Assembly: GCA_965246925.1 (NCBI GenBank)
Contig: OZ251994.1
Span: 1,060,557 to 1,124,556 of the forward strand
Direction of reading: 5' to 3'
DNA from: Acetobacteraceae bacterium
Lineage (GTDB): Bacteria; Pseudomonadota; Alphaproteobacteria; Acetobacterales; Acetobacteraceae
Length of the DNA stretch: 64,000 bases
Made by a program: the position numbers and the translations under genes. The notes beneath the pieces were generated by a model. It was not told where the DNA came from. It searched no databases and worked only from the letters and a program-made list of their open reading frames with translations. Below are positions 4,799 through 56,086 of the stretch, piece after piece; position 1 is the first letter of the stretch, and the number at the start of each line of letters is the position of its first letter.

Positions 4799-4811
4799 GA
4801 ATCGGACGGCA

Positions 4812-5408
4812 ATGACAGTATTAAGGAAATTAAAACTGGGCGCTCGGCCGTGGCCTGTACGTCTTGCCGCGGTCATGGCATTTGCCTTCTATACACATTC
4901 AGGCTCTGCGGCCGAGGCCGTTGACCCTATACTGGCCGTAACCGGTGGTTGTAGTCCGAAATACAGCCGCTACGTGACCGCGATCAATCACCACATGCAG
5001 AGTGCGATAGAAACGCCTCTCGTTTGTAATCGGGCGGTCGTCACTCAATCGCCTGATGGACGCGTCACCTTCCGGTTCAAGAACAGCGGCGCTCAGGACC
5101 GTAACGTGGCAGCCTTCGTGGGGTTCGGGCCTACCGGCTTCCGGTTGAATGCCGTCGAGGAGGGAGTGATCTTGCTTGACATCGATCAGTTCACCTTGCC
5201 GGATACCGAAACCTTCTCGCCAGCAGGATTCGGCAACTGCAAACTGACCTTCGGCGGCGGCCAATTGCTTGATCTCTGGTGTGCGGCGAAGCTGCTCGAA
5301 GGCACGCTGATCAGATCGATGACTGTCACATTCGACATCGTCCCCGGCGCGTCCGACGTCCCGCCAGCCGCGGGAGCGCCCCGCGTCCCGATCAAAGGAC
5401 ATCCGTAG
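4812..5408 (+). CDS. Secreted hypothetical protein
   Basis: The internal ATG at 4812 gives MTVLRKLKLGARPWPVRLAAVMAFAFYTHSGSAAEA, a plausible Sec signal peptide. Four Cys in the mature part. No family recognised. Confidence 0.5.
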   Translation: MTVLRKLKLGARPWPVRLAAVMAFAFYTHSGSAAEAVDPILAVTGGCSPKYSRYVTAINHHMQSAIETPLVCNRAVVTQSPDGRVTFRFKNSGAQDRNVAAFVGFGPTGFRLNAVEEGVILLDIDQFTLPDTETFSPAGFGNCKLTFGGGQLLDLWCAAKLLEGTLIRSMTVTFDIVPGASDVPPAAGAPRVPIKGHP

Positions 5409-5438
5409 GGCGGATCAGCGCAGCGCCATCCGCCCTAC
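5405..5438. repeat. REP-like palindromic element / hairpin between convergent genes
   Basis: GTAGGGCGGAT-cagcgcagcgcc-ATCCGCCCTAC forms an 11-bp perfect stem. It shares the ...GCGCCATCC(R)CC core with the elements at 13401-13483. Confidence 0.5.
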
Positions 5439-5448
5439 CCTGGACGGG

Positions 5449-5943
5449 TCAGAAGCTGCCGATGAAATCCCGCTTGCCCACGTCGACGCCATTATGCCGC
5501 AGGATGGCGTAGGCTGCCGTCGCGTGGAAATGCAGGTTCGGCAGCACGAAATGCAGCAGATACGCTTGGCCCTTGAAGTGCATCTCCTGCCCGGCGATCT
5601 TCAGCACGATCTCACGCTCTTCCGACCCATCGATCTGCGCCGGCGTCAGCGTCTTGATGAAATCGATCGTGCTGGCCAGCCGCGCCTTCAGCTCCGGGAT
5701 CGTCGTCTCGGTGTCGGCGTGCTTCGGCGCCTCCACCCCCGCCAGCCGCGCGCAACCGCCCTTGGCGAAGTCCGCCGCGATCTGCACCTGGCGCTGGCAC
5801 GCGAACATCGTGGGATACAGCCGGGCGGTGAGCAGGATGGCCGGGTCGAATTTATGCGTCTCCGCATGCGCCGCCGCCTTGTCCAGCACGCCCTGCAGCG
5901 CACCCAGCACCTGCAGACAGGACGGCACGGCAACCTGGAACAT
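5449..5943 (-). CDS. DUF1993 domain-containing protein
   Basis: MFQVAVPSCLQVLGALQGVLDKAAAHAE... matches the usual DUF1993 N-terminus. ATG at 5943 is preferred over the TTG at 5952, which overlaps the argG stop. Confidence 0.75.
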   Translation of the reverse strand: MFQVAVPSCLQVLGALQGVLDKAAAHAETHKFDPAILLTARLYPTMFACQRQVQIAADFAKGGCARLAGVEAPKHADTETTIPELKARLASTIDFIKTLTPAQIDGSEEREIVLKIAGQEMHFKGQAYLLHFVLPNLHFHATAAYAILRHNGVDVGKRDFIGSF

Positions 5944-5948
5944 GGAAA

Positions 5949-7175
5949 TCAAAGCGAACCCCCCTTACGGCCGATCGCAGCGCCCAAACGGAGGCGCAGC
6001 GCATTCAGCTTGATGAAACCCTGCGCGTCGAACTGGTCATACGCGCCCTGATCGTCCTCGAACGTGACGGTCTTGCTCGAATAAAGGCTATGCGGGCTGT
6101 CCCGCCCGACGCAGCTCACGTTACCCTTATACAGCTTCATGCGCACCTCCCCGGTGACGCTCGCCTGGCTCGCGTCGATCGCAGCCTGCAGCATCCGGCG
6201 CTCCGGGCTGAACCAGAACCCGTTATAGATCAGCGCGGCGTAGCGCGGCATCAGATCGTCCTTCAAATGCGCCGCCTCCCGGTCCAGGGTGATGCTCTCG
6301 ATCGCCCGGTGCGCCGCGAGCCAGATCGTGCCGCCCGGCGTCTCATACACGCCGCGGGACTTCATCCCGACGTAGCGGTTCTCCACCAAATCCAGCCGGC
6401 CGATGCCGTTATCATGGCCGAGCTGGTTCAGCGTCGAGAGCAGAGACGCCGGGCTGAGCCGGACGCCGTCGATGGACACGGGGTCCCCCTGCTCGAACCC
6501 CACGCGGATCACCGTCGCGCGGTCCGGCGCGTCCTCGGGCCGGATGGTGCGCTGATACACGAACTCGGGCGCCTCTTCGGCCGGGTCCTCGAGCACCTTG
6601 CCCTCGCTCGAGCTGTGCAGGAGGTTGGCGTCCACGCTGAACGGCGCCTCCCCCATCTTGTCGCGGCTGACGGGGATCTGGTTCTGCTCGGCGAATTCCA
6701 GCAGGCGGGTGCGGCTGGTGAGGTCCCATTCGCGCCAGGGCGAGATCACCTTGATATCGGGGCGGAGCGCGTAATAGGCGATCTCGAACCGGACCTGGTC
6801 GTTGCCCTTGCCGGTGGCCCCGTGCGCCACGGCGTCCGCACCCACCATCTCGGCGATCTCGATCTGCCGCTGAGCAATCAAGGGCCGGGCGATGCTGGTG
6901 CCCAGTAAGTATTGGCCTTCATACACGGTGTTGGCGCGGAACATCGGGAAGACGAAGTCGCGCACGAAGGTCTCACGCAGGTCATCGACGAAGATCTCCT
7001 TCACGCCGAACATCTCGGCCTTGCGCCGCGCCGGCTCCAGTTCTTCGCCCTGACCGAGGTCGGCGGTGAACGTCACGACCTCGCACTGGTAGTTGGTCTG
7101 CAGCCACCGGAGGATCACGCTGGTATCGAGCCCGCCGGAATACGCCAGCACGACCTTCTTCACGTCCTTCTGCAT
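5949..7175 (-). CDS. argG: Argininosuccinate synthase
   Basis: 408 aa. [18 protein letters not shown]-binding motif and full-length similarity to type-I ArgG. Confidence 0.97.
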
Positions 7176-7313
7176 TACGCTCTCTCTCGTTCCGGGGGTG
7201 GGCTAGCACGGGCCCCTGCAAAAATCATCCCATCCCCGCCCGGACGGGGGGCGGCGGCTGTCACGAAACCTTCGCCCGACCGCGGCGCCGCTCCCTTGTA
7301 GGGTCGTCCCGTT

Positions 7314-8615
7314 ATGATGGGGATGACGATGAACGGACCGGCACGGATTACGGCGATCTTGCTTACGCTCGCGGCCACACCGGCGCTGGCGGATCAGACC
7401 GCACTCGGCCCCTGGAATGCCGAGGCCGCGAGGCTCGCCGGCGGCTCCGCGCTCGTCACCTCCGCCATGGCGTATATCCGCGCCACCGCCGCCACCCTGC
7501 ATGATCCCGTGATCAAGCGGGAGACCGAGGACGCGGTGTTCAACGCCGACACCTGCGTCCGCAGCCGCGCCAGCCTCACCGCGGAACGGAAGCAGCAGAT
7601 CGTGGCGCAGCTGGTGAGCGAGGGGCTGATCGACGAGACCGAGGCCGGGCGGATCCCCGGTGGCCTGGTCGCCGGCGTGTTCCCGGGCCTGCGCGAAGAC
7701 GGCTCCGCCTGCCCCAAACTGCCGCAGCCCTACGGCAGCGCGCCGGGCAGCGTGTTCGGCGGCCATCATTCCGAGCCCGGCGGCCTGCCGATGCACGTCG
7801 CCGTCAACATGACCAGCGGCATGCACCTGGCCGACACCTATCGCCAGGTGTACGGCATGCTGGACGGGCGCGGCCTGCCGGTGGTGCAGGCGGGCGGCAC
7901 GCCGGATCCCGACCTGTTCATCGACCAGGACATCGCGGCCGGCACGCCCATCTGGCATGACTGGGCCAAGACGATGGTGTTCCAATGGAACGCCGACGGC
8001 TCCGAATACATCGAGATGAACTTCGGCGGTAACGGCAAGACCGACGCCTGGGGCGCCGCGGGCAGCACCAAGACCGGCGGCCACCACCTGATCGGCATCG
8101 CCGAGGGCATGGCGCGCGGCATGCCCCCCGCCTTCCTGATCGCCCACGCCTCCGCCCACGCCGCCCCCACCGCGGGTAACGAGTTCAGCGTGGTGAACTG
8201 GATCCGCACCGCCGGGATCATGACCGGGATCGACCCGGTGGAGCGCGGCTACCTGATCAAGGACGCCATCGGCCGCCTCCGCCTCGCCCCCGTCCGCCAG
8301 CTCGGCTCCATCAACGTCCTGGCCAGCCTGCCGAACCAGTCCAACCTGCTGTACGAGTATGTGCTGCAGAACCTGTCCGATGCGGACTTCACCTATACCG
8401 GCCCGGCGGTCGTTCAAAGCGAGCTGATCCTTCGCACCCTCGCCCCGAAGTTCGGCTACGACCCGGCGGACGCCACCCGCTACAACACCCAATACCGCAA
8501 CCCCACCCTCACCCACCTCTCGGCCGAACGCGTCTTCATTCTCTACGCCAACGGCGGCATCGCCCGCGTGGAAGCGGAGCTGGCTAAGCTAAAAACGGCC
8601 GGACTTCTGCAATGA
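7314..8615 (+). CDS. Secreted hypothetical protein (possible metal-dependent hydrolase)
   Basis: Signal peptide ARITAILLTLAATPALA. His-rich motifs GGHHSEPGGLPMH, IWHDWAK and GGHHLIG. No family assigned with confidence. Confidence 0.6.
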   Translation: MMGMTMNGPARITAILLTLAATPALADQTALGPWNAEAARLAGGSALVTSAMAYIRATAATLHDPVIKRETEDAVFNADTCVRSRASLTAERKQQIVAQLVSEGLIDETEAGRIPGGLVAGVFPGLREDGSACPKLPQPYGSAPGSVFGGHHSEPGGLPMHVAVNMTSGMHLADTYRQVYGMLDGRGLPVVQAGGTPDPDLFIDQDIAAGTPIWHDWAKTMVFQWNADGSEYIEMNFGGNGKTDAWGAAGSTKTGGHHLIGIAEGMARGMPPAFLIAHASAHAAPTAGNEFSVVNWIRTAGIMTGIDPVERGYLIKDAIGRLRLAPVRQLGSINVLASLPNQSNLLYEYVLQNLSDADFTYTGPAVVQSELILRTLAPKFGYDPADATRYNTQYRNPTLTHLSAERVFILYANGGIARVEAELAKLKTAGLLQ

Positions 8616-47284: not shown

Positions 47285-47323
47285 TGGTGCTAACGGATGG
47301 TGCTAACGGGTGATGCTAACGGG
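47285..47323. repeat. 13-bp tandem repeat x3
   Basis: TGGTGCTAACGGA / TGGTGCTAACGGG / TGATGCTAACGGG. It lies immediately upstream (minus strand) of the SD of the 46320..47273 gene and covers the stop of the 47316..47891 gene. Confidence 0.85.
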
Positions 47324-47891: not shown

Positions 47892-47960
47892 GATGACGTC
47901 CTACGACGAAGCCTCTTCCGGGTAAGCCGCAGTTCCATGACAAATCGTGAAACCGTCATA

Positions 47961-47990
47961 CACAGGTGAACCGTGCCCGGATAACCTGTG
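47961..47990. promoter_or_regulatory. Inverted repeat (candidate operator) upstream of the metallophosphoesterase-SPFH-ATPase genes
   Basis: CACAGGT-N16-ACCTGTG, embedded among three GTGAA(A)CCG direct repeats at 47947, 47966 and 48005. Confidence 0.25.
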
Positions 47991-48015
47991 CACCTCATTT
48001 CGTGGTGAACCGGCA

Positions 48016-49467
48016 ATGGCGCGTGTAGTATTGGGCTTTGGCAGTGCGGCAATGGCCTGCATTCTCGTAACCGCCCCGGCCCGGGCGGACGTGATCAACC
48101 AATGGGTTCAGTTCGCGCCCGATAATACGGTCCTGCTTCGCGCGATCGAATCTCTGCCCGCCAATGGCTGCCCGGCCGCTACGGTGGACGGCGCCTCCGT
48201 CACGCTGTCCCCCCGCGGTGACGTTACCACCCCGGCCACGGCGCCCCTCACATCCTATCCGGTCCTCATGTGCGAAAGCGCGCCGCTGCCGGCCTTCGGC
48301 CATAGCTCGGCCAGCGTCGCGGGTGTTCCGCTCAAGATGCCGGTGGCCAACCCGCGCCGCATCATGTTCATCGGCGACACGGGCTGCCGCGTCGCCGCCA
48401 CGCTGACCGGCACGCAGAATTGCAATGACCCGGCGCAGTTCCCGCTCAACTTCCTGGCCAACTACGCCGCCACGTTCCAGCCGGACCTCATCGTCCACAC
48501 CGGTGACTTCTTCTACCGCGAGCAGCCGTGCCCCACCGGCTTCACCGGATGCGCCGGGACCCCCGCTTTCGACAACTGGGACTCCTGGTATGCCGACTGG
48601 TTCGGCCCGGCGAAAAGCCTGATCCAGGCCGCCCCGCTCGCACTGTCCCGCGGCAATCACGAAAGCTGCAACCGCGGCGCCCGCGGCTGGTTCCGCCTGT
48701 TGGACGTGCACGCCTACGACGCCAATGCGGTGAACTGCACCGGACCCTACACGCCCATGGCGGGCGCGCCCGGCGCCAAGGGACCGCTCACCCCTTATGA
48801 CTACACCCCGCCCTATACCGTAAATGCGGGCCAGGTCACTCTGCTGATGTTCGACTCGAGTGACAGCAATACCAGCGCGGTCGATACCACGACCCTTTCG
48901 ACCGACGGACGGACGGTGAAGCAGATCTATACCGCGCAGCTGACTGCCGCACTGGCCCCGCTATCGGGCGCCAACGTATTCTATGTGACGCACAAGCCCA
49001 CCTATGATATCCGCCCAGCCAAGGTGAACGGCAACCTGGCGGGAGGCGACTATACGCAGCAATCCGTGTTCGAAGGCATAAGCCCCGGCGGCGTGCCCGC
49101 CCCGATCAAGCTATTGGTCTCCGGCCATGATCACCAGTTCCAGATGGTCAATTTCGGCGCCAACTATGCGCCGCAGCTAGTGGTGGGCAACTCGGGCACG
49201 CTGCTGGACAACAACTCCGGCGCGCAGCCGCAGGCGTTCACGCCGGACGTCACTGGCACCAACAACGGCGCCACCTACGCCCTGCCCGGCGTCGCGCTGA
49301 CCGCCACCACGACCATCCGCGCTACCGCGGACCGTTCCGAATACGGCTTCACGGTGATGGACGCCATCAACAATGGCTATGTGGCGAACGTGTATAACCT
49401 CGCCTCCAACAAGCTCGCCCGCTGCGTCATGACGCTGTATCCGCGCAGCATGGCCTGCACCCCCTAG
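48016..49467 (+). CDS. Secreted calcineurin-like metallophosphoesterase
   Basis: Signal peptide MARVVLGFGSAAMACILVTAPARA. Metallophosphoesterase motifs IGDTG, GDFFY, GNHE and GHDHQF occur in order. Confidence 0.8.
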   Translation: MARVVLGFGSAAMACILVTAPARADVINQWVQFAPDNTVLLRAIESLPANGCPAATVDGASVTLSPRGDVTTPATAPLTSYPVLMCESAPLPAFGHSSASVAGVPLKMPVANPRRIMFIGDTGCRVAATLTGTQNCNDPAQFPLNFLANYAATFQPDLIVHTGDFFYREQPCPTGFTGCAGTPAFDNWDSWYADWFGPAKSLIQAAPLALSRGNHESCNRGARGWFRLLDVHAYDANAVNCTGPYTPMAGAPGAKGPLTPYDYTPPYTVNAGQVTLLMFDSSDSNTSAVDTTTLSTDGRTVKQIYTAQLTAALAPLSGANVFYVTHKPTYDIRPAKVNGNLAGGDYTQQSVFEGISPGGVPAPIKLLVSGHDHQFQMVNFGANYAPQLVVGNSGTLLDNNSGAQPQAFTPDVTGTNNGATYALPGVALTATTTIRATADRSEYGFTVMDAINNGYVANVYNLASNKLARCVMTLYPRSMACTP

Positions 49468-49469
49468 CA

Positions 49470-51311
49470 GTGAACGCCGTCCACCCAGTCATCGCAGAGG
49501 AAAACACGGTCACAACCCCGTCCTGGCCCAATACGGCCGGGACGGTCCGGCTGTTGCGCCGCCTGCTGACACTCTACCTCCTGGCCGCATCAGCGCTGAT
49601 AGCCGCAGGGTTGACGATGCATCCGCTGGCGGCCGAGGCGCGGCAGTCAGGCCTGCTCGGCGTGGCGGTCGCCGGGCTGACCCTGGCCGCCGCAGGCCTT
49701 GCCGCATGCTTGATCATGGCCCAGGCCCGGCACCGCGCCGGGACGTTCGATCCGGACGCGCTTTCCGCATTGGGCCGTATGGCGCGGCGTCCGCAGGGCG
49801 TGGTGATCCCTGTGCTCACCGGCCTCGCCATGGCAGCAGCCTGGGCCGGGCGGGCGCACGCGCCGGACCTATATGCCCAAGCGGCGCTGCTGGGCGGCGG
49901 CATGATCGTGCTCACCTTCCCGCTGCTGGTGGCCGAGCGGATGGTGGCCGGCCTATCGCCGCTGGCCTTACCCGAAGCGCCTTCGCTACAGGCGCTGATG
50001 TTCGTCCCCGTGCTGACTTGGCCGCTCGCGGGGACCCTGCATATCCTGGGCTCGCTCGGCCTGCCTTGGGCGGGCGGACTGATGGCGGTGCCGGCGCTGA
50101 TCACCGGCGTAGCCGCGCTCGAACTCATGGTCCGCTCCTTGGCGGTATGGTTCATGCTGCCGCCCAGCCCGCTGCTGGCCCGGGCCGCCATCGCCAGCCT
50201 GTCCGCCGCGCTGCTGCAGCCCGGACGGCTGGCCGGGTCCGGACTGGCATCCCCGGTGCAGACCCATCTCGGTATCGACTTCTCGCGCAGCTGGGCGCTG
50301 CGCTATCTCAGCGGCGCGGTTCTGCCGGTGGCGGCGCTGGTGGCGCTGCTGGCCTGGGGCCTGACCGGCGTGGCGTTGGTGCCGCTGGACCGCCGGGCGG
50401 TGTATGAACGGCTGGGCGTGCCGGCGTCCATCTGGCAGCCTGGCCTGCACGCGGGCCTGCCGTGGCCGCTCGGCCAGGCGCGGATAGTGGAGATGGGCGT
50501 CGTCCACGCCGTACCGCTCGGCGCCAGCCTGCCCGGCGCGGCCGGCCCCGCCGAGGCGTTCGCGCCGGAGGGAGCCGACCGGCTTTGGGACCAGCCGCAC
50601 CCCGGCGAAATCGCCCTCCTGACTGCAAGCCAGGGCAGCACCGGTGAGCAGGGGTTCCAGAGCGTGAACGTGGACCTCACGGTCCTGTACCGCTTCGCAC
50701 TGGATGATCATGGCGCGCTCGAAGCGGCCTATGCGCAGAACGATCCGGACCAGCTCGTCCGTTCCGAAGCCAGCCGGCTCCTGGTGCAGCTCTGCGCCGG
50801 GCGCACGCTCGACAGCCTGCTAGGCGAAGACCGCGCCAGCGTCGCCGGCGGCGTAGGCCTGGCGCTCGGCCAGGAGCTGGAACGGCTCGGCAGCGGCATC
50901 GAGCTGTTGGGCATCGAGATCGAGGCGATCCACCCGCCCGCCAGCGCCGCCAGCGCCTATCACGCGGTTCAGGCCGCCGGCATCGTCGCCAGCACGGCGA
51001 TCGCGACCGAGGCCGGGCGCGCCCAAGCCGCCGCCAGCCTATCCCGCCAACAGGCCGCCACCCTTATGGACGAAGCACGCGCTAGCGGGGCCGAAGCCGT
51101 GGGCGCGGCGGAAGTCGGCTTGCGGCAGTTCACCGCCGACCACGCCGCCGATAGCGAGGCGTTCCGGCTGGAGCGCACCCTTGCCAACCTGTCATCCGCC
51201 CTGCCCCGCATGCCCCTGATCATCATCGATCACCGGCTGCAGGGTGCGTCCGCCCCCGTCATCGACCTCCGCCCCGGTAACGCCCCCTCCGGCGCCCCGG
51301 CGGACGAGTAG
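49470..51311 (+). CDS. SPFH/Band-7 (HflK-like) protein fused to a ~310-aa polytopic N-terminal membrane domain
   Basis: GTG start 2 nt after the upstream stop. Multiple TM segments, then an SPFH pattern (RRAVYERLGVPASIWQPGLHAGLPWP ... GIELLGIEIEAIHPP). Confidence 0.75.
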   Translation: MNAVHPVIAEENTVTTPSWPNTAGTVRLLRRLLTLYLLAASALIAAGLTMHPLAAEARQSGLLGVAVAGLTLAAAGLAACLIMAQARHRAGTFDPDALSALGRMARRPQGVVIPVLTGLAMAAAWAGRAHAPDLYAQAALLGGGMIVLTFPLLVAERMVAGLSPLALPEAPSLQALMFVPVLTWPLAGTLHILGSLGLPWAGGLMAVPALITGVAALELMVRSLAVWFMLPPSPLLARAAIASLSAALLQPGRLAGSGLASPVQTHLGIDFSRSWALRYLSGAVLPVAALVALLAWGLTGVALVPLDRRAVYERLGVPASIWQPGLHAGLPWPLGQARIVEMGVVHAVPLGASLPGAAGPAEAFAPEGADRLWDQPHPGEIALLTASQGSTGEQGFQSVNVDLTVLYRFALDDHGALEAAYAQNDPDQLVRSEASRLLVQLCAGRTLDSLLGEDRASVAGGVGLALGQELERLGSGIELLGIEIEAIHPPASAASAYHAVQAAGIVASTAIATEAGRAQAAASLSRQQAATLMDEARASGAEAVGAAEVGLRQFTADHAADSEAFRLERTLANLSSALPRMPLIIIDHRLQGASAPVIDLRPGNAPSGAPADE

Positions 51312-51317
51312 AGAACC

Positions 51318-52346
51318 ATGCACCTGCACAACCACGATCACGCCCATCACGACCACGGCCATCACGGACACGGCCATCACGGACACGGCCACGATGGCCC
51401 GGCGCCGGGCAGGACGCGGGTCTTCCTGCGCTTCCTGGGTGCCGGCCTCGTTCTGGCCGCGGCAGTGTTCGCCTCCTGCTCGGTCATCGTGCCCGCCGGG
51501 CAGGCGGTGGTGGTGACGCGGTTCGGGGACCTCAGCCGCGTCCTAGTGTCTCCCGGCCTCGCCTGGAAATGGCCCGCGCCAGCCGAGACGGGCATTTCGG
51601 TCGATCTTCGCCTCCGCACCACCTCCACCGGCCTGCAGGACGTCGGCACCAAGGACGGGCTCCGCATCCTGGTGCAAGCCTTCGTCGCCTGGCAGGTCCC
51701 GGCCGACCCCGGCGCCATCCGCACCTACCTCCGCGCCGTGCGCGAGCCGGACGAGGCGGCGCGCCAGCTGCGGAGCCTCACCGGCGCCGCCCTGCAGGTG
51801 ACCGCCAGCGGGTTCGACTTGCAGGATCTGGTCGATACCGACACCGGACGCCAGCGCCTACCGGCGTTCGAATCCCGCCTCCTGGAACAAATCCAGCGCC
51901 AAGCCGCGGAAGTGTATGGCGTCAAGATCGTGCAAGCCGGGATCGAACGCCTGAGCCTGCCGGACGCCACCCTCGCCGCCACCGTGTCCCGCATGCGGGC
52001 CGAGCGGGAGACGGCCGCCGCCGCCCGCACGGCGGAGGGGCTGCGCGCCGCCGCCGAACTCCGCTCCCGCGCCACCAGCGAGTCCCGCATCCTGGTCGCC
52101 CACGCCCGGACGGAGGCGGCCGGGATCGAGGCCGCCTCCCGCCAGCAAGCCGCCGCCATCCAGTCCCACGCCTACGCGATCGATCCGGAGCTGTATGCCA
52201 TGCTCCGCTCCCTCGATACGCTCGGTAGCGTCGTCGGCCCCAACACGCGCATGGTGCTCCGTACGGACTCGGCGCCGTTCAACATGCTCATCGGGCCGCC
52301 CCGCACCACCCCGGCCATCGGCGCTGCGACCGCGAGCGCGCCGTGA
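51318..52346 (+). CDS. SPFH/Band-7 (HflC-like) protein with His-rich N-terminus
   Basis: MHLHNHDHAHHDHGHHGHGHHGHGHDG, then a TM segment, then an SPFH pattern (GQAVVVTRFGDLSRVLVSPGLAWKWP ... VKIVQAGIERLSLP). Confidence 0.8.
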   Translation: MHLHNHDHAHHDHGHHGHGHHGHGHDGPAPGRTRVFLRFLGAGLVLAAAVFASCSVIVPAGQAVVVTRFGDLSRVLVSPGLAWKWPAPAETGISVDLRLRTTSTGLQDVGTKDGLRILVQAFVAWQVPADPGAIRTYLRAVREPDEAARQLRSLTGAALQVTASGFDLQDLVDTDTGRQRLPAFESRLLEQIQRQAAEVYGVKIVQAGIERLSLPDATLAATVSRMRAERETAAAARTAEGLRAAAELRSRATSESRILVAHARTEAAGIEAASRQQAAAIQSHAYAIDPELYAMLRSLDTLGSVVGPNTRMVLRTDSAPFNMLIGPPRTTPAIGAATASAP

Positions 52347-53377
52347 ACCCGGGTGGCGAGAACTCGAATGGTGAACCGGCGGGCCCTATCGTCCAGGCCA
52401 TCACCACCGCCTTCCGCGCCGTATGGGCGGCTGTGTTCCTGCTTGCGGCCGGCTGGGCCGCCTCGAGCTGGCGGCAAGTCCCGGCGGACAGCCAGGCCGT
52501 GATGCTGCGGTTCGGCCGGGTCGTGGGGGTGCAGCAGGCCGGGCTCGCCCTATCCTGGCCGCGCCCCATCGGCGGCATGGCATTGGTGCCGGGCCGGGCG
52601 CGCCAGCTCACGCTACGCACCCAGGCCACCGCCCGGCGGGAGGGGCTATCCGACCTGTTCACCCAGGCCTCGGGCGCCGAACTGCCCGACGGCGCCGGCA
52701 GCTATCTCACGGGTGACGGCAGCGTCGTACTGCTATCGGCCGACATGACCTATCAGGTGACGGATGCGGAGCACTATTACCTCGCTCAGGATCACGTGCC
52801 CCCGGCACTGCAGCGCGTGTTCCAGGCCAGCGCCATCGCCATCCTCGCCCGGCTCGACCTGGATGACGTCCTGGTCGCCCGCCCGGACCGGCAGACGCCG
52901 GAGCAAGCCGCGGCGGCGGAAGACCGGCGGCGCGGGCTGCGCGATGCCATCCTGGCCGAGATGAACCACCGGCTGGCGCCCCTGTCCCTGGGTGTCGAAA
53001 TCAGCCGGCTCGACCTCGACCCGGCGCTTCCGCCCGCCGCGAAGATCGCTTTCGACGGGGTGCTGGTATCGGTGCAACTGGCCGAGCAAGCGATTGCCGC
53101 AGCGCGGACCGAGGCGCTGCGTATCGCCCAGGCCGCCGGCCGGGAGCAGGACCGGCTCATGGACGCCGCCCGGGCCGGCGCCGCCGAGCGGGTGAGCGAA
53201 GCCTCACGCCAGACCGCCCCTATCCTGGCGCTAGAGGCCGGCATGACCGCCGCCACCCGGCCCGCGATCCTCGATCACGCCTACCGCGACGGGCTCGCGG
53301 CGTTCATGCCAAGGGTGGGCCGGGTCATGGCCGTCGATGCCCAGGGCACCCGCATCCTGTTGCCCGGCGCGCCATGA
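52343..53377 (+). CDS. SPFH/Band-7 (HflK-like) protein
   Basis: 4-nt overlap with the upstream gene. A TM segment, then QAVMLRFGRVVGVQQAGLALSWPRP ... LGVEISRLDLDPALPP. Confidence 0.75.
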   Translation: MNPGGENSNGEPAGPIVQAITTAFRAVWAAVFLLAAGWAASSWRQVPADSQAVMLRFGRVVGVQQAGLALSWPRPIGGMALVPGRARQLTLRTQATARREGLSDLFTQASGAELPDGAGSYLTGDGSVVLLSADMTYQVTDAEHYYLAQDHVPPALQRVFQASAIAILARLDLDDVLVARPDRQTPEQAAAAEDRRRGLRDAILAEMNHRLAPLSLGVEISRLDLDPALPPAAKIAFDGVLVSVQLAEQAIAAARTEALRIAQAAGREQDRLMDAARAGAAERVSEASRQTAPILALEAGMTAATRPAILDHAYRDGLAAFMPRVGRVMAVDAQGTRILLPGAP

Positions 53378-53469
53378 GCGCGCCCCTTCAAGTTATGGCC
53401 GCGCCATGAGCGCGCCCCTTCAAGTTACGGCCGCGCCATGAGCGCGCCCCTTCACGTCACGGCCACGCC
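53374..53469 (+). repeat. 32-bp tandem repeat x3 (plus a partial fourth copy forming the ATPase start)
   Basis: ATGAGCGCGCCCCTTCAAGTTA(T/C)GGCCGCGCC at 53374, 53406 and 53438 (the third copy has 4 substitutions). Each copy reproduces the CCATGA stop/start junction. Confidence 0.9.
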
Positions 53470-55353
53470 TTGAGCGCGTCCGCCTCCATCGCCGCGCCGC
53501 TGCTAGCCTGGCGGGAGCGGGGGGCGCTCGCGGTGCAGCTCACGCTCGCGCTGCTGGCCGCCGGGCTGCTGATCCTGGCCGTGCTGTGGCAGGCGCTGGT
53601 GCCGGAGGGGCGCGCCCTGTCCGACCTCGTCGCCGGCGGCGCGGCGCTGCTGGTGGCCGTCCCGGTCATCACTGCCGCCTGGGACAGCCTCCGCCACCCC
53701 AGCCTCCATGGCGTCACCGACCGGCTGATCAGCATCGCGCTGGTGGCCGCCTGGGCCAGCGGCGACCTCATGACCGCCGCCGTTCTGCCGATCATCATGA
53801 TCCTGGGCCACGTGCTGGAGGAGCGCAGCCTGCTCGGCTCCCGCGAAGCCATCCGCGCGCTGGGCCGGCTCGCGCAGACCGAAGCGCGGCGGATCGGCCC
53901 GGACGGCGCCGTCACGCCCGTCGCCACCAAGGAGCTGCGCCTAGGTGACCGCGTGCTGCTGCTGGCCGGTGACCAGCTGCCGGCGGACGGCATCATCCGG
54001 GACGGAGAGGCCAGCCTCGACATGGCCTCCCTGACCGGGGAGAGCGTGCCGGTGGACGTGGGCGTGGGTTACGCCGCGCTGGCCGGCTCTATCAACACCA
54101 ACGGACGGCTCGAGCTCGAGGTGACGCGCCTGGGCGCGGACACGACGCTGGGCAAGATCATCGCCCTCATGCGCGATGCGGAGCGGGCCAAGCCGCCCGT
54201 GTCCCGCCTGCTGGAGCGGTATGCCGGGCACTATATGGCGCTGGTGCTGCTGATCGCGGCCGGCACGTGGTTCGCCACCAATGACACCGCCGCGGCGCTG
54301 GCGGTCCTAGTCGCGTCCTGCCCCTGCGCGCTGGTGCTGGCAGCACCCGCCACCTCCATCGCCGCCATCGCCGTCGCGGCCCGGCTGGGCATCCTGATCA
54401 AGGGCTCCGCCTTTCTCGAGCAACTGGCCGAGGTCACCTCCGTGGTGTTCGACAAGACCGGCACGCTCACCACCGGTGAGCTGACGTTGCTCACCTTCGA
54501 GCCGGCGCCCGGCACCGATGCGGAATGGGCGCTCCCGCTCGCGGCGGCGCTGGGCGCAGCCAGCAACCATCCCGTCAGCCGCGCCGCCGCCCGCGCCGGG
54601 TCCGGCTGGCGTCCGCATCTGGACAACATTCATGAGGCCAGCGGCTTCGGCGTGAGCGCCACGGTCGATGGCGTTGGCGCCTCCATGGGCCGCCCGGAGA
54701 TGTTCGCCGATCTGGACCCTGGCCCGCCGCCCGCCCATGACGGCCCGATCGCCGGGCTGGGCTTTGGCGGCCGCTTCCTGGGCTGGCTGCTATTCGCCGA
54801 CCGCCCCCGCCCGGAATCCCGCGCCGCCATCCTGGAGCTGCGCGCCTTGGGACTCGACCGGCAGGTCCTGCTGACCGGGGACCGCGCGGCAGTGGCGGAG
54901 CGCGTGGGCGCCGAACTCGGCATCGCCGACATCTGCGCCCAAGCCTTGCCGCAGCAGAAGATGGCCCGCGTCCTGCAAGAGATCGCGTCCGGCTATAAGC
55001 CCATGGTGGTCGGCGACGGCATCAACGACTCGCTGGCGCTGAAGGTGGGCGCGGTGGGCGTGGCCATGGGCGCGCAGGGCACGGACGTGGCCCTGGCCTC
55101 GGCCGACCTGGTGCTCATGACGAGCGACCTGCGCCGGCTCGCGACCTGTATCCGCCTGAGCCGCCGCTGCCGCCGCACCATTCATGTGAACGTCGCCGTG
55201 GGGCTCGGCTGGACCGGGGTATTGATCGCGCTGGCGGCGTTCGGCGCTTTGGGGGCGGAGGGCGCAATCATCGCCGCCCTGCTGCACAACCTCAGCACCT
55301 TCATCGGCCTCGGCAATGCCGGGCGGCTGCTGCTGTTCGATGAGCCGCTTTGA
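53470..55353 (+). CDS. P1B-type (heavy-metal) P-type ATPase lacking an N-terminal metal-binding domain
   Basis: TGES, CPC (ASCPCALVLAAP), DKTGTLT, SNHP and GDGINDS are all present. 627 aa, beginning directly in membrane segments. TTG start at 53470. Confidence 0.9.
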   Translation: MSASASIAAPLLAWRERGALAVQLTLALLAAGLLILAVLWQALVPEGRALSDLVAGGAALLVAVPVITAAWDSLRHPSLHGVTDRLISIALVAAWASGDLMTAAVLPIIMILGHVLEERSLLGSREAIRALGRLAQTEARRIGPDGAVTPVATKELRLGDRVLLLAGDQLPADGIIRDGEASLDMASLTGESVPVDVGVGYAALAGSINTNGRLELEVTRLGADTTLGKIIALMRDAERAKPPVSRLLERYAGHYMALVLLIAAGTWFATNDTAAALAVLVASCPCALVLAAPATSIAAIAVAARLGILIKGSAFLEQLAEVTSVVFDKTGTLTTGELTLLTFEPAPGTDAEWALPLAAALGAASNHPVSRAAARAGSGWRPHLDNIHEASGFGVSATVDGVGASMGRPEMFADLDPGPPPAHDGPIAGLGFGGRFLGWLLFADRPRPESRAAILELRALGLDRQVLLTGDRAAVAERVGAELGIADICAQALPQQKMARVLQEIASGYKPMVVGDGINDSLALKVGAVGVAMGAQGTDVALASADLVLMTSDLRRLATCIRLSRRCRRTIHVNVAVGLGWTGVLIALAAFGALGAEGAIIAALLHNLSTFIGLGNAGRLLLFDEPL

Positions 55354-55417
55354 CGCATAAACGTCGCAAACAAGGCCGTCCCATTCTGCTAGCGTTTCCG
55401 AAATCGGAGACATCGAC

Positions 55418-56086
55418 ATGAAATTCTGGACTATCCCTGCGCTTGCCCTCCTGCTCGCAGCGGCCCCAGCCGCGGCTACGACCCTCACCAGCAGCCTCTC
55501 GGCATTCCAGGCCGGCGCGGGCGCGGTGACCGTGACCCGGCTCACGGGCCTGTATGACCCCACGGCGCTGATCCTGCCGGTGGTGAGCAGCGTTCCATTG
55601 AGCGGCGGCGGCAGCCTGGCCGTGAACCAATCGGTGCAGATCGTGCAGACCCCGGCGGGCGGCGGCGGCTTCCCCTACACTCTGACGGACGGTTTCAACG
55701 GTGACCTGCTGATCCCGGTGGATGCCAGCGGCAACCAGCTGACGTCGGAGACCATCAACACCGCCGGGCTCAGCGGATTGGGGATCGAGGTCGCGCCGTT
55801 CTCCAGCAGCTTGGGTGGCCCCTACACCATCACGATCACGGGCTCGAACGGCCAGACGCTATCCACGGCCGCCCCCGGCGGCAGCTTCGCCACCGGCGCC
55901 ACCGCCCCGGTCTTCCTAGGCTTCTTCGGCGGCGGCGTGAGCACGATCACCATCAGCACCACCGACCCGAACGGCTTCGCCTTCGGCAATATCCGCACCC
56001 CGGCGCCCGTCCCCGAGCCCGCCTCCCTAGCCCTACTCGCCGCCGGCACGCTCGCCCTCTACACCGCCCGCCGCCGTTACCTCTGA
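55418..56086 (+). CDS. PEP-CTERM sorting-domain protein
   Basis: Signal peptide MKFWTIPALALLLAAAPAAA. C-terminal VPEPASLALLAAGTLALYTARRRYL. Confidence 0.8.
   Translation: MKFWTIPALALLLAAAPAAATTLTSSLSAFQAGAGAVTVTRLTGLYDPTALILPVVSSVPLSGGGSLAVNQSVQIVQTPAGGGGFPYTLTDGFNGDLLIPVDASGNQLTSETINTAGLSGLGIEVAPFSSSLGGPYTITITGSNGQTLSTAAPGGSFATGATAPVFLGFFGGGVSTITISTTDPNGFAFGNIRTPAPVPEPASLALLAAGTLALYTARRRYL

What the first reader, a model, noticed from the sequence alone, without database searches (positions are those of the whole stretch)
53374..53472. 32-bp x3 tandem repeat makes a chain of three ATGA-coupled 11-codon mini-ORFs in front of the ATPase
The repeat unit duplicates the stop/start junction of the last SPFH gene (..GCGCCATGA..).

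As read from the sequence:
- The SPFH3 stop TGA (53375-53377) overlaps ATG 53374 of mini-ORF 1 (MSAPLQVMAAP).
- Its TGA overlaps the ATG of mini-ORF 2 (MSAPLQVTAAP).
- That TGA overlaps the ATG of mini-ORF 3 (MSAPLHVTATP).
- That TGA overlaps the TTG start of the ATPase (MSASASIA...).

Each unit is 32 bp, so the frame steps by -1 each time. This could be a recent slipped-strand or unequal-crossover expansion (a variable-number repeat that weakens coupling of the pump to the SPFH genes). It could instead be a termination-reinitiation relay that tunes ATPase dosage. The weak TTG start on the ATPase fits dependence on reinitiation.
Basis: seen in the sequence. Interest (0 to 1): 0.6.

Follow-up and report, generated by a model that had tools for sequence, protein, structure and literature searches.

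The report
Duplicated stop/start junction before metal pump
The overlapping stop/start signal (ATGA) between a membrane-scaffold gene and a heavy-metal pump gene has been copied in tandem, leaving three tiny 11-codon reading frames chained stop-over-start in front of the pump; this is a real, recurrent mutation at this junction and resembles the mycobacterial MIRU repeats, and its effect on pump expression is untested.

Summary
A 32-bp unit occurs three times plus a diverged fourth copy at 53368-53498. It produces ATGA at 53374, 53406 and 53438 and TTGA at 53470, so three 11-codon ORFs are chained between the third SPFH gene and a P1B-type heavy-metal ATPase. It is not an assembly artefact: contigs from two independent sequencing runs span it without a difference, and no k-mer of 29 bases or more repeats within it.

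Across 161 related loci the single NTGA overlap is the conserved state (125 of 139 analysable junctions). The array is therefore a lineage-private tandem duplication of the junction plus the first ~10 ATPase codons.

Comparable 3n-1 duplications arose independently in other lineages, with units of 17, 29/30, 35 and 44 nt. Two strains 98.4% identical differ by one perfect 17-nt copy. No frame-breaking variant was seen, but a microhomology null shows a mutational bias towards 3n-1, so selection is not proven.

None of the four starts has a Shine-Dalgarno-like motif, and no promoter-like site lies nearby. Serial termination-reinitiation is therefore the most likely route to the ATPase, probably at reduced yield. 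Adaptive dosage tuning is unsupported. The closest known analogue is the mycobacterial MIRU repeat.

The parts
52343..53377 (+). SPFH3 gene: third SPFH/Band-7 (HflK-like) gene of the operon, 344 aa, with stop TGA at 53375-53377
   Evidence: ORF list; Pfam Band_7 E=2.3e-14; weak HflK similarity, below cut-off
53368..53463 (+). Three near-identical 32-bp tandem units (53368-53399, 53400-53431, 53432-53463), consensus CGCGCCATGAGCGCGCCCCTTCAAGTTACGGC
   Evidence: TRF; pattern search with shuffles
53464..53492 (+). Fourth, diverged 29-nt copy (CACGCC TTGAGCGCG TCCGCCTCCATC GC) that carries the ATPase start
   Evidence: Read from the sequence; gapped alignment to the unit gives 25 matched columns of 34
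53493..53498 (+). Terminal CGCGCC direct repeat, the same hexamer that begins every unit; likely the microhomology that mediated slippage
   Evidence: Read from the sequence; its role is inferred
53374..53409 (+). Mini-ORF 1, MSAPLQVMAAP; its ATG overlaps the SPFH3 TGA and its TGA overlaps the next ATG
53406..53441 (+). Mini-ORF 2, MSAPLQVTAAP
53438..53473 (+). Mini-ORF 3, MSAPLHVTATP; its TGA overlaps the ATPase TTG
53470..55353 (+). P1B-type heavy-metal P-type ATPase, 627 aa, TTG start, no N-terminal metal-binding domain; contains TGES, CPC, DKTGT and GDGIND motifs
   Evidence: Translation; Pfam E1-E2_ATPase and Hydrolase; TIGR01525 491 bits and TIGR01512 453 bits, both above cut-off
47947..52346 (+). 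Upstream part of the same tightly packed operon: metallophosphoesterase (47947-49467), SPFH1 (49470-51311) and SPFH2 (51318-52346, which overlaps SPFH3 by GTGA)
   Evidence: the same gene order is found in L081

Best explanation
The array is a lineage-specific tandem duplication of the conserved SPFH3-stop/ATPase-start ATGA junction together with the first ~10 codons of the ATPase. It probably arose by replication slippage or unequal exchange between short GC-rich direct repeats (GGC(C)GCGCC / CGCGCC).

The unit is 32 nt (3n-1) and carries the ATGA. Each copy is therefore automatically a self-contained 11-codon ORF whose TGA overlaps the next start.

In this operon family the ATPase is normally translated by ribosomes that finish SPFH3 and restart at the -4 overlap. 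Here the same ribosomes must terminate and reinitiate four times (ATGA, ATGA, ATGA, TTGA) to reach the ATPase. The likely result is that the pump is still made, but at a lower ratio to the SPFH proteins. The 11-residue peptides are by-products.

What is shown: the structure of the array, that it is real, its origin from the junction, and that such duplications recur in relatives. What is inferred: the reinitiation relay and the lowered yield.
For: - The array and its frames are confirmed, and two independent runs carry it unchanged.
- A single NTGA overlap is found in 125 of 139 analysable junctions of the same operon in Acetobacteraceae, Rhizomicrobium, Stellaceae and Solimonas. The starts are ATG 109, GTG 12, TTG 3 and CTG 1. 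ATPase N-termini almost always begin MSA, i.e. ATGAGCGC.
- The closest relative, L081 (87% aa identity), has one ATGA junction.
- The unit is found nowhere else in the window or in the related loci.
- Independent junction duplications that keep the chain: L089 compared with L085 (98.4% nt identity, one perfect extra 17-nt copy); L087 (2 copies); L004 (4 copies); L048 (five extra units of 30, 30, 30, 29 and 29 nt ahead of the ATPase's own copy); L104 (35 nt; its 93-94% identical relative L017 is single-copy); and L022 and L027 (44 and 131 nt, differing by 87 = 3x29 nt).
- No out-of-frame (3n+1) variant was found.
- No GGAG-, GAGG-, AGGA- or GGGA-type motif precedes any of the four window starts, whereas 60 of 118 relatives have one. 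There is no promoter-like or terminator-like site in 52800-53700 and no unusual RNA structure (z = -0.65).
- The ATPase ORF is intact with all catalytic motifs.
- Established knowledge: NTGA overlaps give termination-reinitiation coupling in bacteria (PMC6728339). A short ORF coupled at -4 can deliver ribosomes to a downstream gene, as proposed for MIRUs (PMC12548453).
Against: - There are no expression data of any kind: no RNA run holds the locus and there is no ribosome profiling.
- Reinitiation efficiency per step is unknown. Four steps ending on TTG could leave the ATPase nearly silent.
- The 3n-1 rule is not clean evidence of selection. Microhomology pairs around single-copy junctions already favour 3n-1 over 3n+1 by 62-81%. 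With about six independent events, all being 3n-1 has p of roughly 0.06-0.28.
- Copy 4 differs strongly in its middle from copies 1-3, so the history involves more than one step and cannot be reconstructed.
- An in-frame GTG at 53533, preceded by GGGAGCGGGGGG, could serve as an independent start.
Confidence: 0.6

Rival explanations
1. The array is a neutral or mildly deleterious slippage mutation that has effectively switched the ATPase off (incipient pseudogenisation). The chain of mini-ORFs is an automatic by-product of a 3n-1 unit and carries few or no ribosomes to the TTG.
For: - The ATG has changed to TTG at the real ATPase start, and there is no SD-like motif.
- The array is private to one lineage.
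- Differences between the mini-ORFs are 3 non-synonymous to 2 synonymous, so the peptides are not conserved.
- Mutational bias alone explains most of the 3n-1 pattern.
Against: - The ATPase ORF is intact over 627 codons with all motifs.
- In L004 and L048 the duplicated copies have decayed, so they are old, yet the ATPase ORFs (642 and 666 codons) and the unbroken chain persist.
- TTG, GTG or CTG starts are tolerated at single-copy overlapped junctions in 16 of 125 relatives.
Confidence: 0.25
2. The array is an adaptive translational rheostat: copy number of the coupled mini-ORF unit is selected to set the pump-to-scaffold ratio.
For: - Junction duplications recur in at least six lineages, none of them frame-breaking.
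- L022 and L027 keep both overlaps although their mini-ORFs differ in length by 87 nt.
- Copy number differs between close relatives in the 17-nt clade: 1, 1, 2, 2 and 4.
Against: - The microhomology null predicts most events to be 3n-1 anyway.
- Only about 6% of junctions carry any insertion.
- No phenotype or expression data exist.
- Both samples that hold this strain have the same copy number.
Confidence: 0.12
3. The ATPase is translated independently of the array by de novo initiation, at TTG 53470 or at the in-frame GTG 53533, which follows a G-rich SD-like stretch (GGGAGCGGGGGG, 53513-53524). On this view the mini-ORFs are irrelevant.
For: GTG 53533 is in frame, 63 nt after 53470, and has a G-rich stretch 8-15 nt upstream (sequence). 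Some relatives have uncoupled junctions with their own SD, for example L155.
Against: - A start at 53533 would remove the LLAWRERGALA segment that aligns in nearly all relatives.
- The Val codon is not conserved there.
- The conserved start in 125 relatives is the overlapped NTGA.
Confidence: 0.1
4. The array is an assembly artefact: a single-copy junction that was expanded, or a longer array that was collapsed.
For: None found. Repeats in general are prone to such errors.
Against: Two runs from two samples give contigs that span the array with 0 differences. No repeated k-mer of 29 bases or more occurs inside the array. The copies differ by diagnostic substitutions.
Confidence: 0.02

Closest known systems
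NTGA (-4 nt) stop/start overlaps with translational coupling by termination-reinitiation (Huber et al. 2019, PMC6728339; review PMC12548453)
   Same: Co-directional operon genes share ATGA, and the overlap is conserved in orthologous operons. Each step of the window's chain is an ordinary -4 overlap.
   Different: Here four overlaps are chained through three 11-codon ORFs created by duplication of the junction itself. Dependence on upstream translation has not been measured.
Mycobacterial interspersed repetitive units (MIRUs; Supply et al. 1997 as summarised in PMC12548453; unit sizes and VNTR typing are from my own knowledge)
   Same: Tandemly repeated short units sit at gene junctions inside operons. 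Each unit contains a small ORF coupled at -4 nt to the neighbouring gene, so the insertion barely disturbs expression. Copy number varies between strains; among this operon's relatives it does so in the 17-nt clade.
   Different: MIRUs are a dispersed, apparently mobile family at many loci in Mycobacterium. The window's unit is a local copy of the native junction and the ATPase 5' end. It is unique in the window and in both metagenome assemblies, it is 32 bp, and the host is an Acetobacteraceae-like alphaproteobacterium.
Contingency loci / phase-variable simple-sequence repeats
   Same: Slippage-prone tandem repeat at the 5' end of a gene.
   Different: The unit carries its own start and stop, so gaining or losing copies never shifts the ATPase frame. 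The array can act at most as a rheostat, not an on/off switch.
Ribosome-delivering upstream short ORFs (uORF coupling; PMC12548453)
   Same: Short ORFs whose only likely role is to hand ribosomes to the next start.
   Different: These ORFs lie in the middle of an operon, are fed by an upstream long gene, and come in a series of three.

Membership tests
NTGA-overlap translationally coupled gene pair (termination-reinitiation) | Co-directional ORFs whose stop and start share NTGA | tested here: met
   ATGA at 53374, 53406 and 53438; TTGA at 53470
NTGA-overlap translationally coupled gene pair (termination-reinitiation) | The overlap is conserved in orthologous gene pairs | tested here: met
   125 of 139 analysable SPFH3-ATPase junctions are direct NTGA overlaps, and 8 more are NTGA chains
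NTGA-overlap translationally coupled gene pair (termination-reinitiation) | Translation of the downstream gene depends on translation of the upstream gene | not testable with these tools
   Needs premature-stop reporter constructs or ribosome profiling; no RNA run holds the locus
MIRU-like repeat | Tandem short units at an intra-operon gene junction, each with an ORF overlapping its neighbours' stop and start | tested here: met
MIRU-like repeat | Dispersed family present at many loci of the genome | tested here: not met
   The unit is found only at 53368-53463 in the window, even allowing up to 6 mismatches. In both metagenome assemblies the only contig laid on 53381-53454 is the spanning contig: depth there equals that contig's depth. 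The rest of the genome was not read directly.
MIRU-like repeat | Copy number varies between strains (VNTR) | tested here: inconclusive
   For the window's array, two samples both have 3 copies, from contigs only. For the analogous 17-nt junction repeat in relatives, copy number is 1, 1, 2, 2 and 4.
Phase-variable contingency locus | A change in repeat number shifts the reading frame or promoter spacing of the gene | tested here: not met
   Each 32-nt unit contains its own ATG and TGA, so the ATPase frame and start are independent of copy number (sequence logic)
Leader-peptide attenuator | A short ORF upstream of a terminator/antiterminator at the 5' end of an operon | tested here: not met
   No terminator-like site in 52800-53700; RNA fold z = -0.65; the array lies between the 4th and 5th genes of the operon
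P1B heavy-metal P-type ATPase (the downstream gene) | E1-E2 and HAD domains, DKTGT phosphorylation site, and a CPC motif in the transmembrane metal site | tested here: met
   Pfam; TIGR01525 and TIGR01512 above cut-off; FDKTGTLT and SCPCALV are in the translation

The most novel reading that the evidence does not exclude
The SPFH3/ATPase junction of this operon family may be an evolvable translational rheostat. Recurrent 3n-1 duplications of the ATGA junction would build relays of stop-over-start mini-ORFs. Selection would keep these relays unbroken and would use their number to set how many metal pumps are made per SPFH scaffold. That would be an endogenous, non-mobile counterpart of MIRUs.
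Probability: 0.12. Interest if true: 0.6.

Novelty: new variant of a known kind. Interest (0 to 1): 0.35.

Why it matters
If the relay works, this locus and its natural allelic series in relatives (0, 1, 3 or 5 mini-ORFs; ATG, TTG or CTG starts) form a ready-made test set. It could show how efficiently bacterial ribosomes reinitiate through successive -4 overlaps without a Shine-Dalgarno sequence, a quantity the coupling literature says is still poorly measured (PMC6728339).

It also shows that MIRU-like architectures can arise by simple slippage of a native ATGA junction, without any mobile element.

For annotation, the practical lesson is that the 96 nt between SPFH3 and the ATPase are not an intergenic spacer, and that the TTG start is the homologue of the conserved overlapped ATG.

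Tried and rejected
- **A hairpin presenting AUGA in its loop (GGCGCGC-CAUGA-GCGCGCC).** Folding of 53340-53520 is no better than shuffles (z = -0.65), and junction contexts in relatives show no consistent stem. Dropped.
- **An internal promoter or terminator between SPFH3 and the ATPase.** None found.
- **A 3n-1 rule as proof of selection.** This looked attractive: all events are 2 mod 3. However, a null built from microhomology pairs at 118 single-copy junctions gives 62-81% 3n-1 among the out-of-frame classes. The argument is weakened and kept only as a suggestion.
- **The unit as a more 'ancestral' ATPase N-terminus than copy 4.** The unit shares CCC-NTT-CAA with L081, but the unit and copy 4 align to L081 equally well (scores 50 and 52). 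Not resolvable.
- **Searching for relatives with SPFH3 in genome contigs.** Found nothing. The ATPase query worked.
- **Exact-protein look-ups of the window's own SPFH3 and ATPase, to find other strains.** Nothing on record. Only two runs hold the locus, so copy-number polymorphism of this array could not be assessed.
- **Literature on an SPFH plus P1B-ATPase operon, or on junction-duplication relays.** Nothing specific found.
- **Programmed -1 frameshifting from a mini-ORF into the ATPase frame.** No aligned slippery heptamer was seen by eye. Not pursued.
Full report

Yes. Tandem Repeats Finder reports one array at 53368-53478 with period 32, 3.5 copies, 93% matches and no indels. The consensus is CGCGCCATGAGCGCGCCCCTTCAAGTTACGGC. 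It matches at 53368, 53400 and 53432 with 1, 0 and 2 mismatches and nowhere else in the window. None of 100 dinucleotide-preserving shuffles gave a match.

- SPFH3 (52343-53377) stops at TGA 53375-53377.
- ATG 53374 opens MSAPLQVMAAP, and its TGA overlaps ATG 53406.
- ATG 53406 opens MSAPLQVTAAP, and its TGA overlaps ATG 53438.
- ATG 53438 opens MSAPLHVTATP, and its TGA (53471-53473) overlaps TTG 53470.
- TTG 53470 is the first possible start of the 627-codon ATPase ORF. That frame is open only from 53410 and has no other ATG, GTG, TTG or CTG before 53470.

I add one point. A fourth, diverged 29-nt copy (53464-53492) forms the ATPase's own 5' end. It is followed by the hexamer CGCGCC (53493-53498), the same hexamer that begins every unit.

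**2. Is it an assembly artefact?**

No, as far as contigs can show. Two public runs from two samples of one study hold the locus. In each, one contig spans the whole array with 0 substitutions and 0 gaps. No other contig lies on the array, so the unit is not dispersed elsewhere in those assemblies. No k-mer of 29 bases or more is repeated inside the array, so a k=31 assembly cannot collapse or expand it.

**3. What are the flanking genes?**

The operon reads as follows:
- metallophosphoesterase (47947-49467)
- SPFH1 (49470-51311)
- SPFH2 (51318-52346)
- SPFH3 (52343-53377, overlapping SPFH2 by GTGA)
- the array
- a P1B heavy-metal P-type ATPase (53470-55353)
- a PEP-CTERM protein (55418-56086)

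The ATPase scores above the cut-offs of TIGR01525 and TIGR01512. It has TGES, CPC, DKTGT and GDGIND motifs and no N-terminal metal-binding domain.

**4. What do relatives show?**

ATPase homologues of 57-87% identity are common in Acetobacteraceae MAGs. They also occur in Rhizomicrobium, Stellaceae and Solimonas. Their N-termini almost always begin MSA, which corresponds to ATGAGCGC.

I fetched 161 loci (80 from genomes, 80 from metagenomes, and the closest relative L081) and traced every junction mechanically. Of 139 analysable junctions:
- 125 have the SPFH3 TGA directly overlapping the ATPase start. The starts are ATG 109, GTG 12, TTG 3 and CTG 1.
- 8 have an NTGA chain through one or more mini-ORFs.
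- 6 are uncoupled (TAG-C-ATG, or a spacer of 45-150 nt).

One further locus, L045, has a frame-shifted SPFH3 and was excluded. The closest relative, L081 (87% aa identity, about 80% nt identity in the flanks), has the same gene order and a single ATGA.

The single -4 overlap is therefore the ancestral and strongly conserved state. The window's array is derived and private: the unit is absent from 1.45 Mb of related loci.

**5. How did it arise?**

Each unit is the junction (…CGCGCC ATGA GCGCG…) plus about 10 ATPase codons, ending in GCCGCGCC. The SPFH3 end (GGCGCGCC) and the sequence after copy 4 (GCCGCGCC GCTG…) supply direct repeats of 6-9 nt spaced one unit apart. That is the classic substrate for replication slippage or unequal exchange.

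Copies 1-3 differ by only 1-2 substitutions, so they are recent. Copy 4 keeps the first 9 and last 8 nt but is rearranged in the middle, with a net length change of -3 nt. At least two steps are therefore needed. The order of those steps cannot be recovered, because the unit and copy 4 align to L081 equally well.

The change that makes the ATPase start TTG (CCA to CCT) is synonymous in mini-ORF 3.

**6. The same thing happens elsewhere.**

Independent junction duplications occur in other lineages of this operon:
- L089 carries a perfect extra 17-nt copy (ATGAGCGCGACAACCCT) relative to L085. The two are 98.4% identical in the flanks.
- L087 has 2 copies. Its 93-96% identical relative L088 has one, with a CTGA junction.
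- L004 has 4 copies (CTGA, CTGA, CTGA, ATGA).
- L048 has five extra units of 30, 30, 30, 29 and 29 nt ahead of the ATPase's own copy. The older units have fused into one 40-codon ORF. Its 86-88% identical relative L039 is single-copy.
- L104 has one extra 35-nt unit. Its 93-94% identical relative L017 is single-copy.
- L022 and L027 share a homologous mini-ORF of 44 and 131 nt. The difference is 87 = 3x29 nt.
- L157 has a REP/MITE-like palindromic insertion of 125 nt that is still one open ORF with overlaps at both ends.

All of these lengths are 3n-1, and in every case the chain to the ATPase is unbroken. An in-frame (3n) duplication also exists: L093/P0037, MSASVAD-MSALEAP. No 3n+1 case was found.

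**7. Does this prove selection for a relay?**

No. SPFH3 and the ATPase are read one base out of phase, and codon-periodic GC-rich sequence favours phase-matched microhomology. Slippage should therefore be biased towards 3n-1.

I tested this on 118 distinct single-copy junctions. Among microhomology pairs able to duplicate the ATGA, 3n-1 outnumbers 3n+1 by 123:74 for matches of at least 6 nt, 40:17 for at least 7 nt and 13:3 for at least 8 nt. With about six independent events, the chance that all are 3n-1 is roughly 0.06-0.28. The pattern is suggestive but not decisive.

Two further observations point the same way and are equally weak. Decayed arrays persist next to intact ATPase genes in L004 and L048. 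The mini-ORFs of L022 and L027 differ by a whole number of codons.

**8. How does it most likely work?**

None of the four window starts has a GGAG-, GAGG-, AGGA- or GGGA-type motif in positions -18 to -4, whereas 60 of 118 relatives have one. There is no promoter-like or terminator-like site in 52800-53700. The RNA folds no better than shuffled sequence (z = -0.65).

Overlapped NTGA pairs in bacteria are coupled by termination-reinitiation, and the contribution of an SD varies from case to case (PMC6728339). Short ORFs coupled at -4 nt can deliver ribosomes to the next gene (PMC12548453).

The most economical reading is therefore as follows. Ribosomes finishing SPFH3 restart at 53374, translate 11 codons, restart at 53406, then at 53438, and finally at TTG 53470. 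Each step presumably loses some ribosomes, so the ATPase:SPFH ratio should be lower than in single-junction relatives. The peptides show 3 non-synonymous and 2 synonymous differences, so there is no sign that they are selected.

This relay is inferred, not shown. The main rival is that the pump is essentially silenced. A smaller one is independent initiation, for example at the in-frame GTG 53533 behind GGGAGCGGGGGG.

**9. Comparison with known systems.**

Each step of the chain is an ordinary -4 overlap. The whole array resembles mycobacterial MIRUs most closely: tandem units at operon junctions whose internal ORF is coupled at -4 nt, so that insertion hardly disturbs expression (PMC12548453, citing Supply et al. 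1997).

It fails the MIRU criterion of being a dispersed, mobile family. It is a local copy of the native junction. It is not a phase-variation switch, because copy-number change cannot shift the ATPase frame. It is not a leader-peptide attenuator either.

I found no paper describing junction-duplication relays or an SPFH plus P1B-ATPase operon, but the library searched is not exhaustive.

**10. Verdict.**

The reinitiation relay is plausible but untested, and adaptive tuning is unsupported. This is a new variant of a known kind: an endogenous, MIRU-like chain of coupled mini-ORFs. Interest is moderate to low for the single locus. It is somewhat higher for the natural allelic series in the operon family, which would make reinitiation efficiency directly measurable.

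Noticed in passing
window 51318-51400 (repeat 51333-51391): The SPFH2 N-terminus is strongly His-rich (MHLHNHDHAHHDHGHHGHGHHGHGHDG). It is partly encoded by a 15-nt x3.9 tandem repeat. Relatives carry similar His-codon repeats at the same position (e.g. L030 3665-3722, L032 1060-1119). The ATPase lacks an N-terminal metal-binding domain, so the His-rich SPFH protein may be its metal-binding partner.
   Followed up: partly
window 47947-56086; L001-L161: The operon metallophosphoesterase - three SPFH/HflK-like genes - P1B heavy-metal ATPase - PEP-CTERM protein is conserved across Acetobacteraceae, Rhizomicrobium, Stellaceae and Solimonas, with tight overlaps between genes. This suggests an SPFH scaffold or cage that works with a metal pump. 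No paper on it was found.
   Followed up: partly
L157 2877-3001: A REP/MITE-like palindromic element (…CCCGGGAGAGGGCCGGGGTGAGGGCG…CGCCCTCACCC…CCCTCTCCC…) is inserted exactly at the ATGA junction. It remains a single open 42-codon ORF with ATGA and GTGA overlaps at its ends.
   Followed up: no
L088 2953; L004 5902, 5919 and 5936: CTG stands in place of ATG at overlapped junction starts (CTGA). In L088 it is the only candidate start of an otherwise intact 642-codon ATPase. This hints that reinitiation at this junction tolerates non-canonical starts.
   Followed up: no
L045 4800-5900: SPFH3 is frame-shifted (ORFs 4800-5498 and 5356-7875) although the ATGA junction sequence is present at 5899. The cause is either a pseudogene or a long-read homopolymer error.
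   Followed up: partly
L093 2956-2997; L079 5967-6007: There are in-frame slippage products inside the ATPase N-terminal coding region: a 21-nt duplication giving MSASVAD-MSALEAP, and a 13-nt x3 repeat (39 nt in total). The 5' end of this ATPase gene is a general slippage hot spot.
   Followed up: partly
window 47285-47322: A 13-nt x2.9 tandem repeat (TGGTGCTAACGGA) lies upstream of the operon's first gene.
   Followed up: no
window 53513-53535: An in-frame GTG at 53533 is preceded by GGGAGCGGGGGG. It is a possible alternative, SD-assisted internal start for the ATPase. The Val codon is not conserved in relatives.
   Followed up: partly
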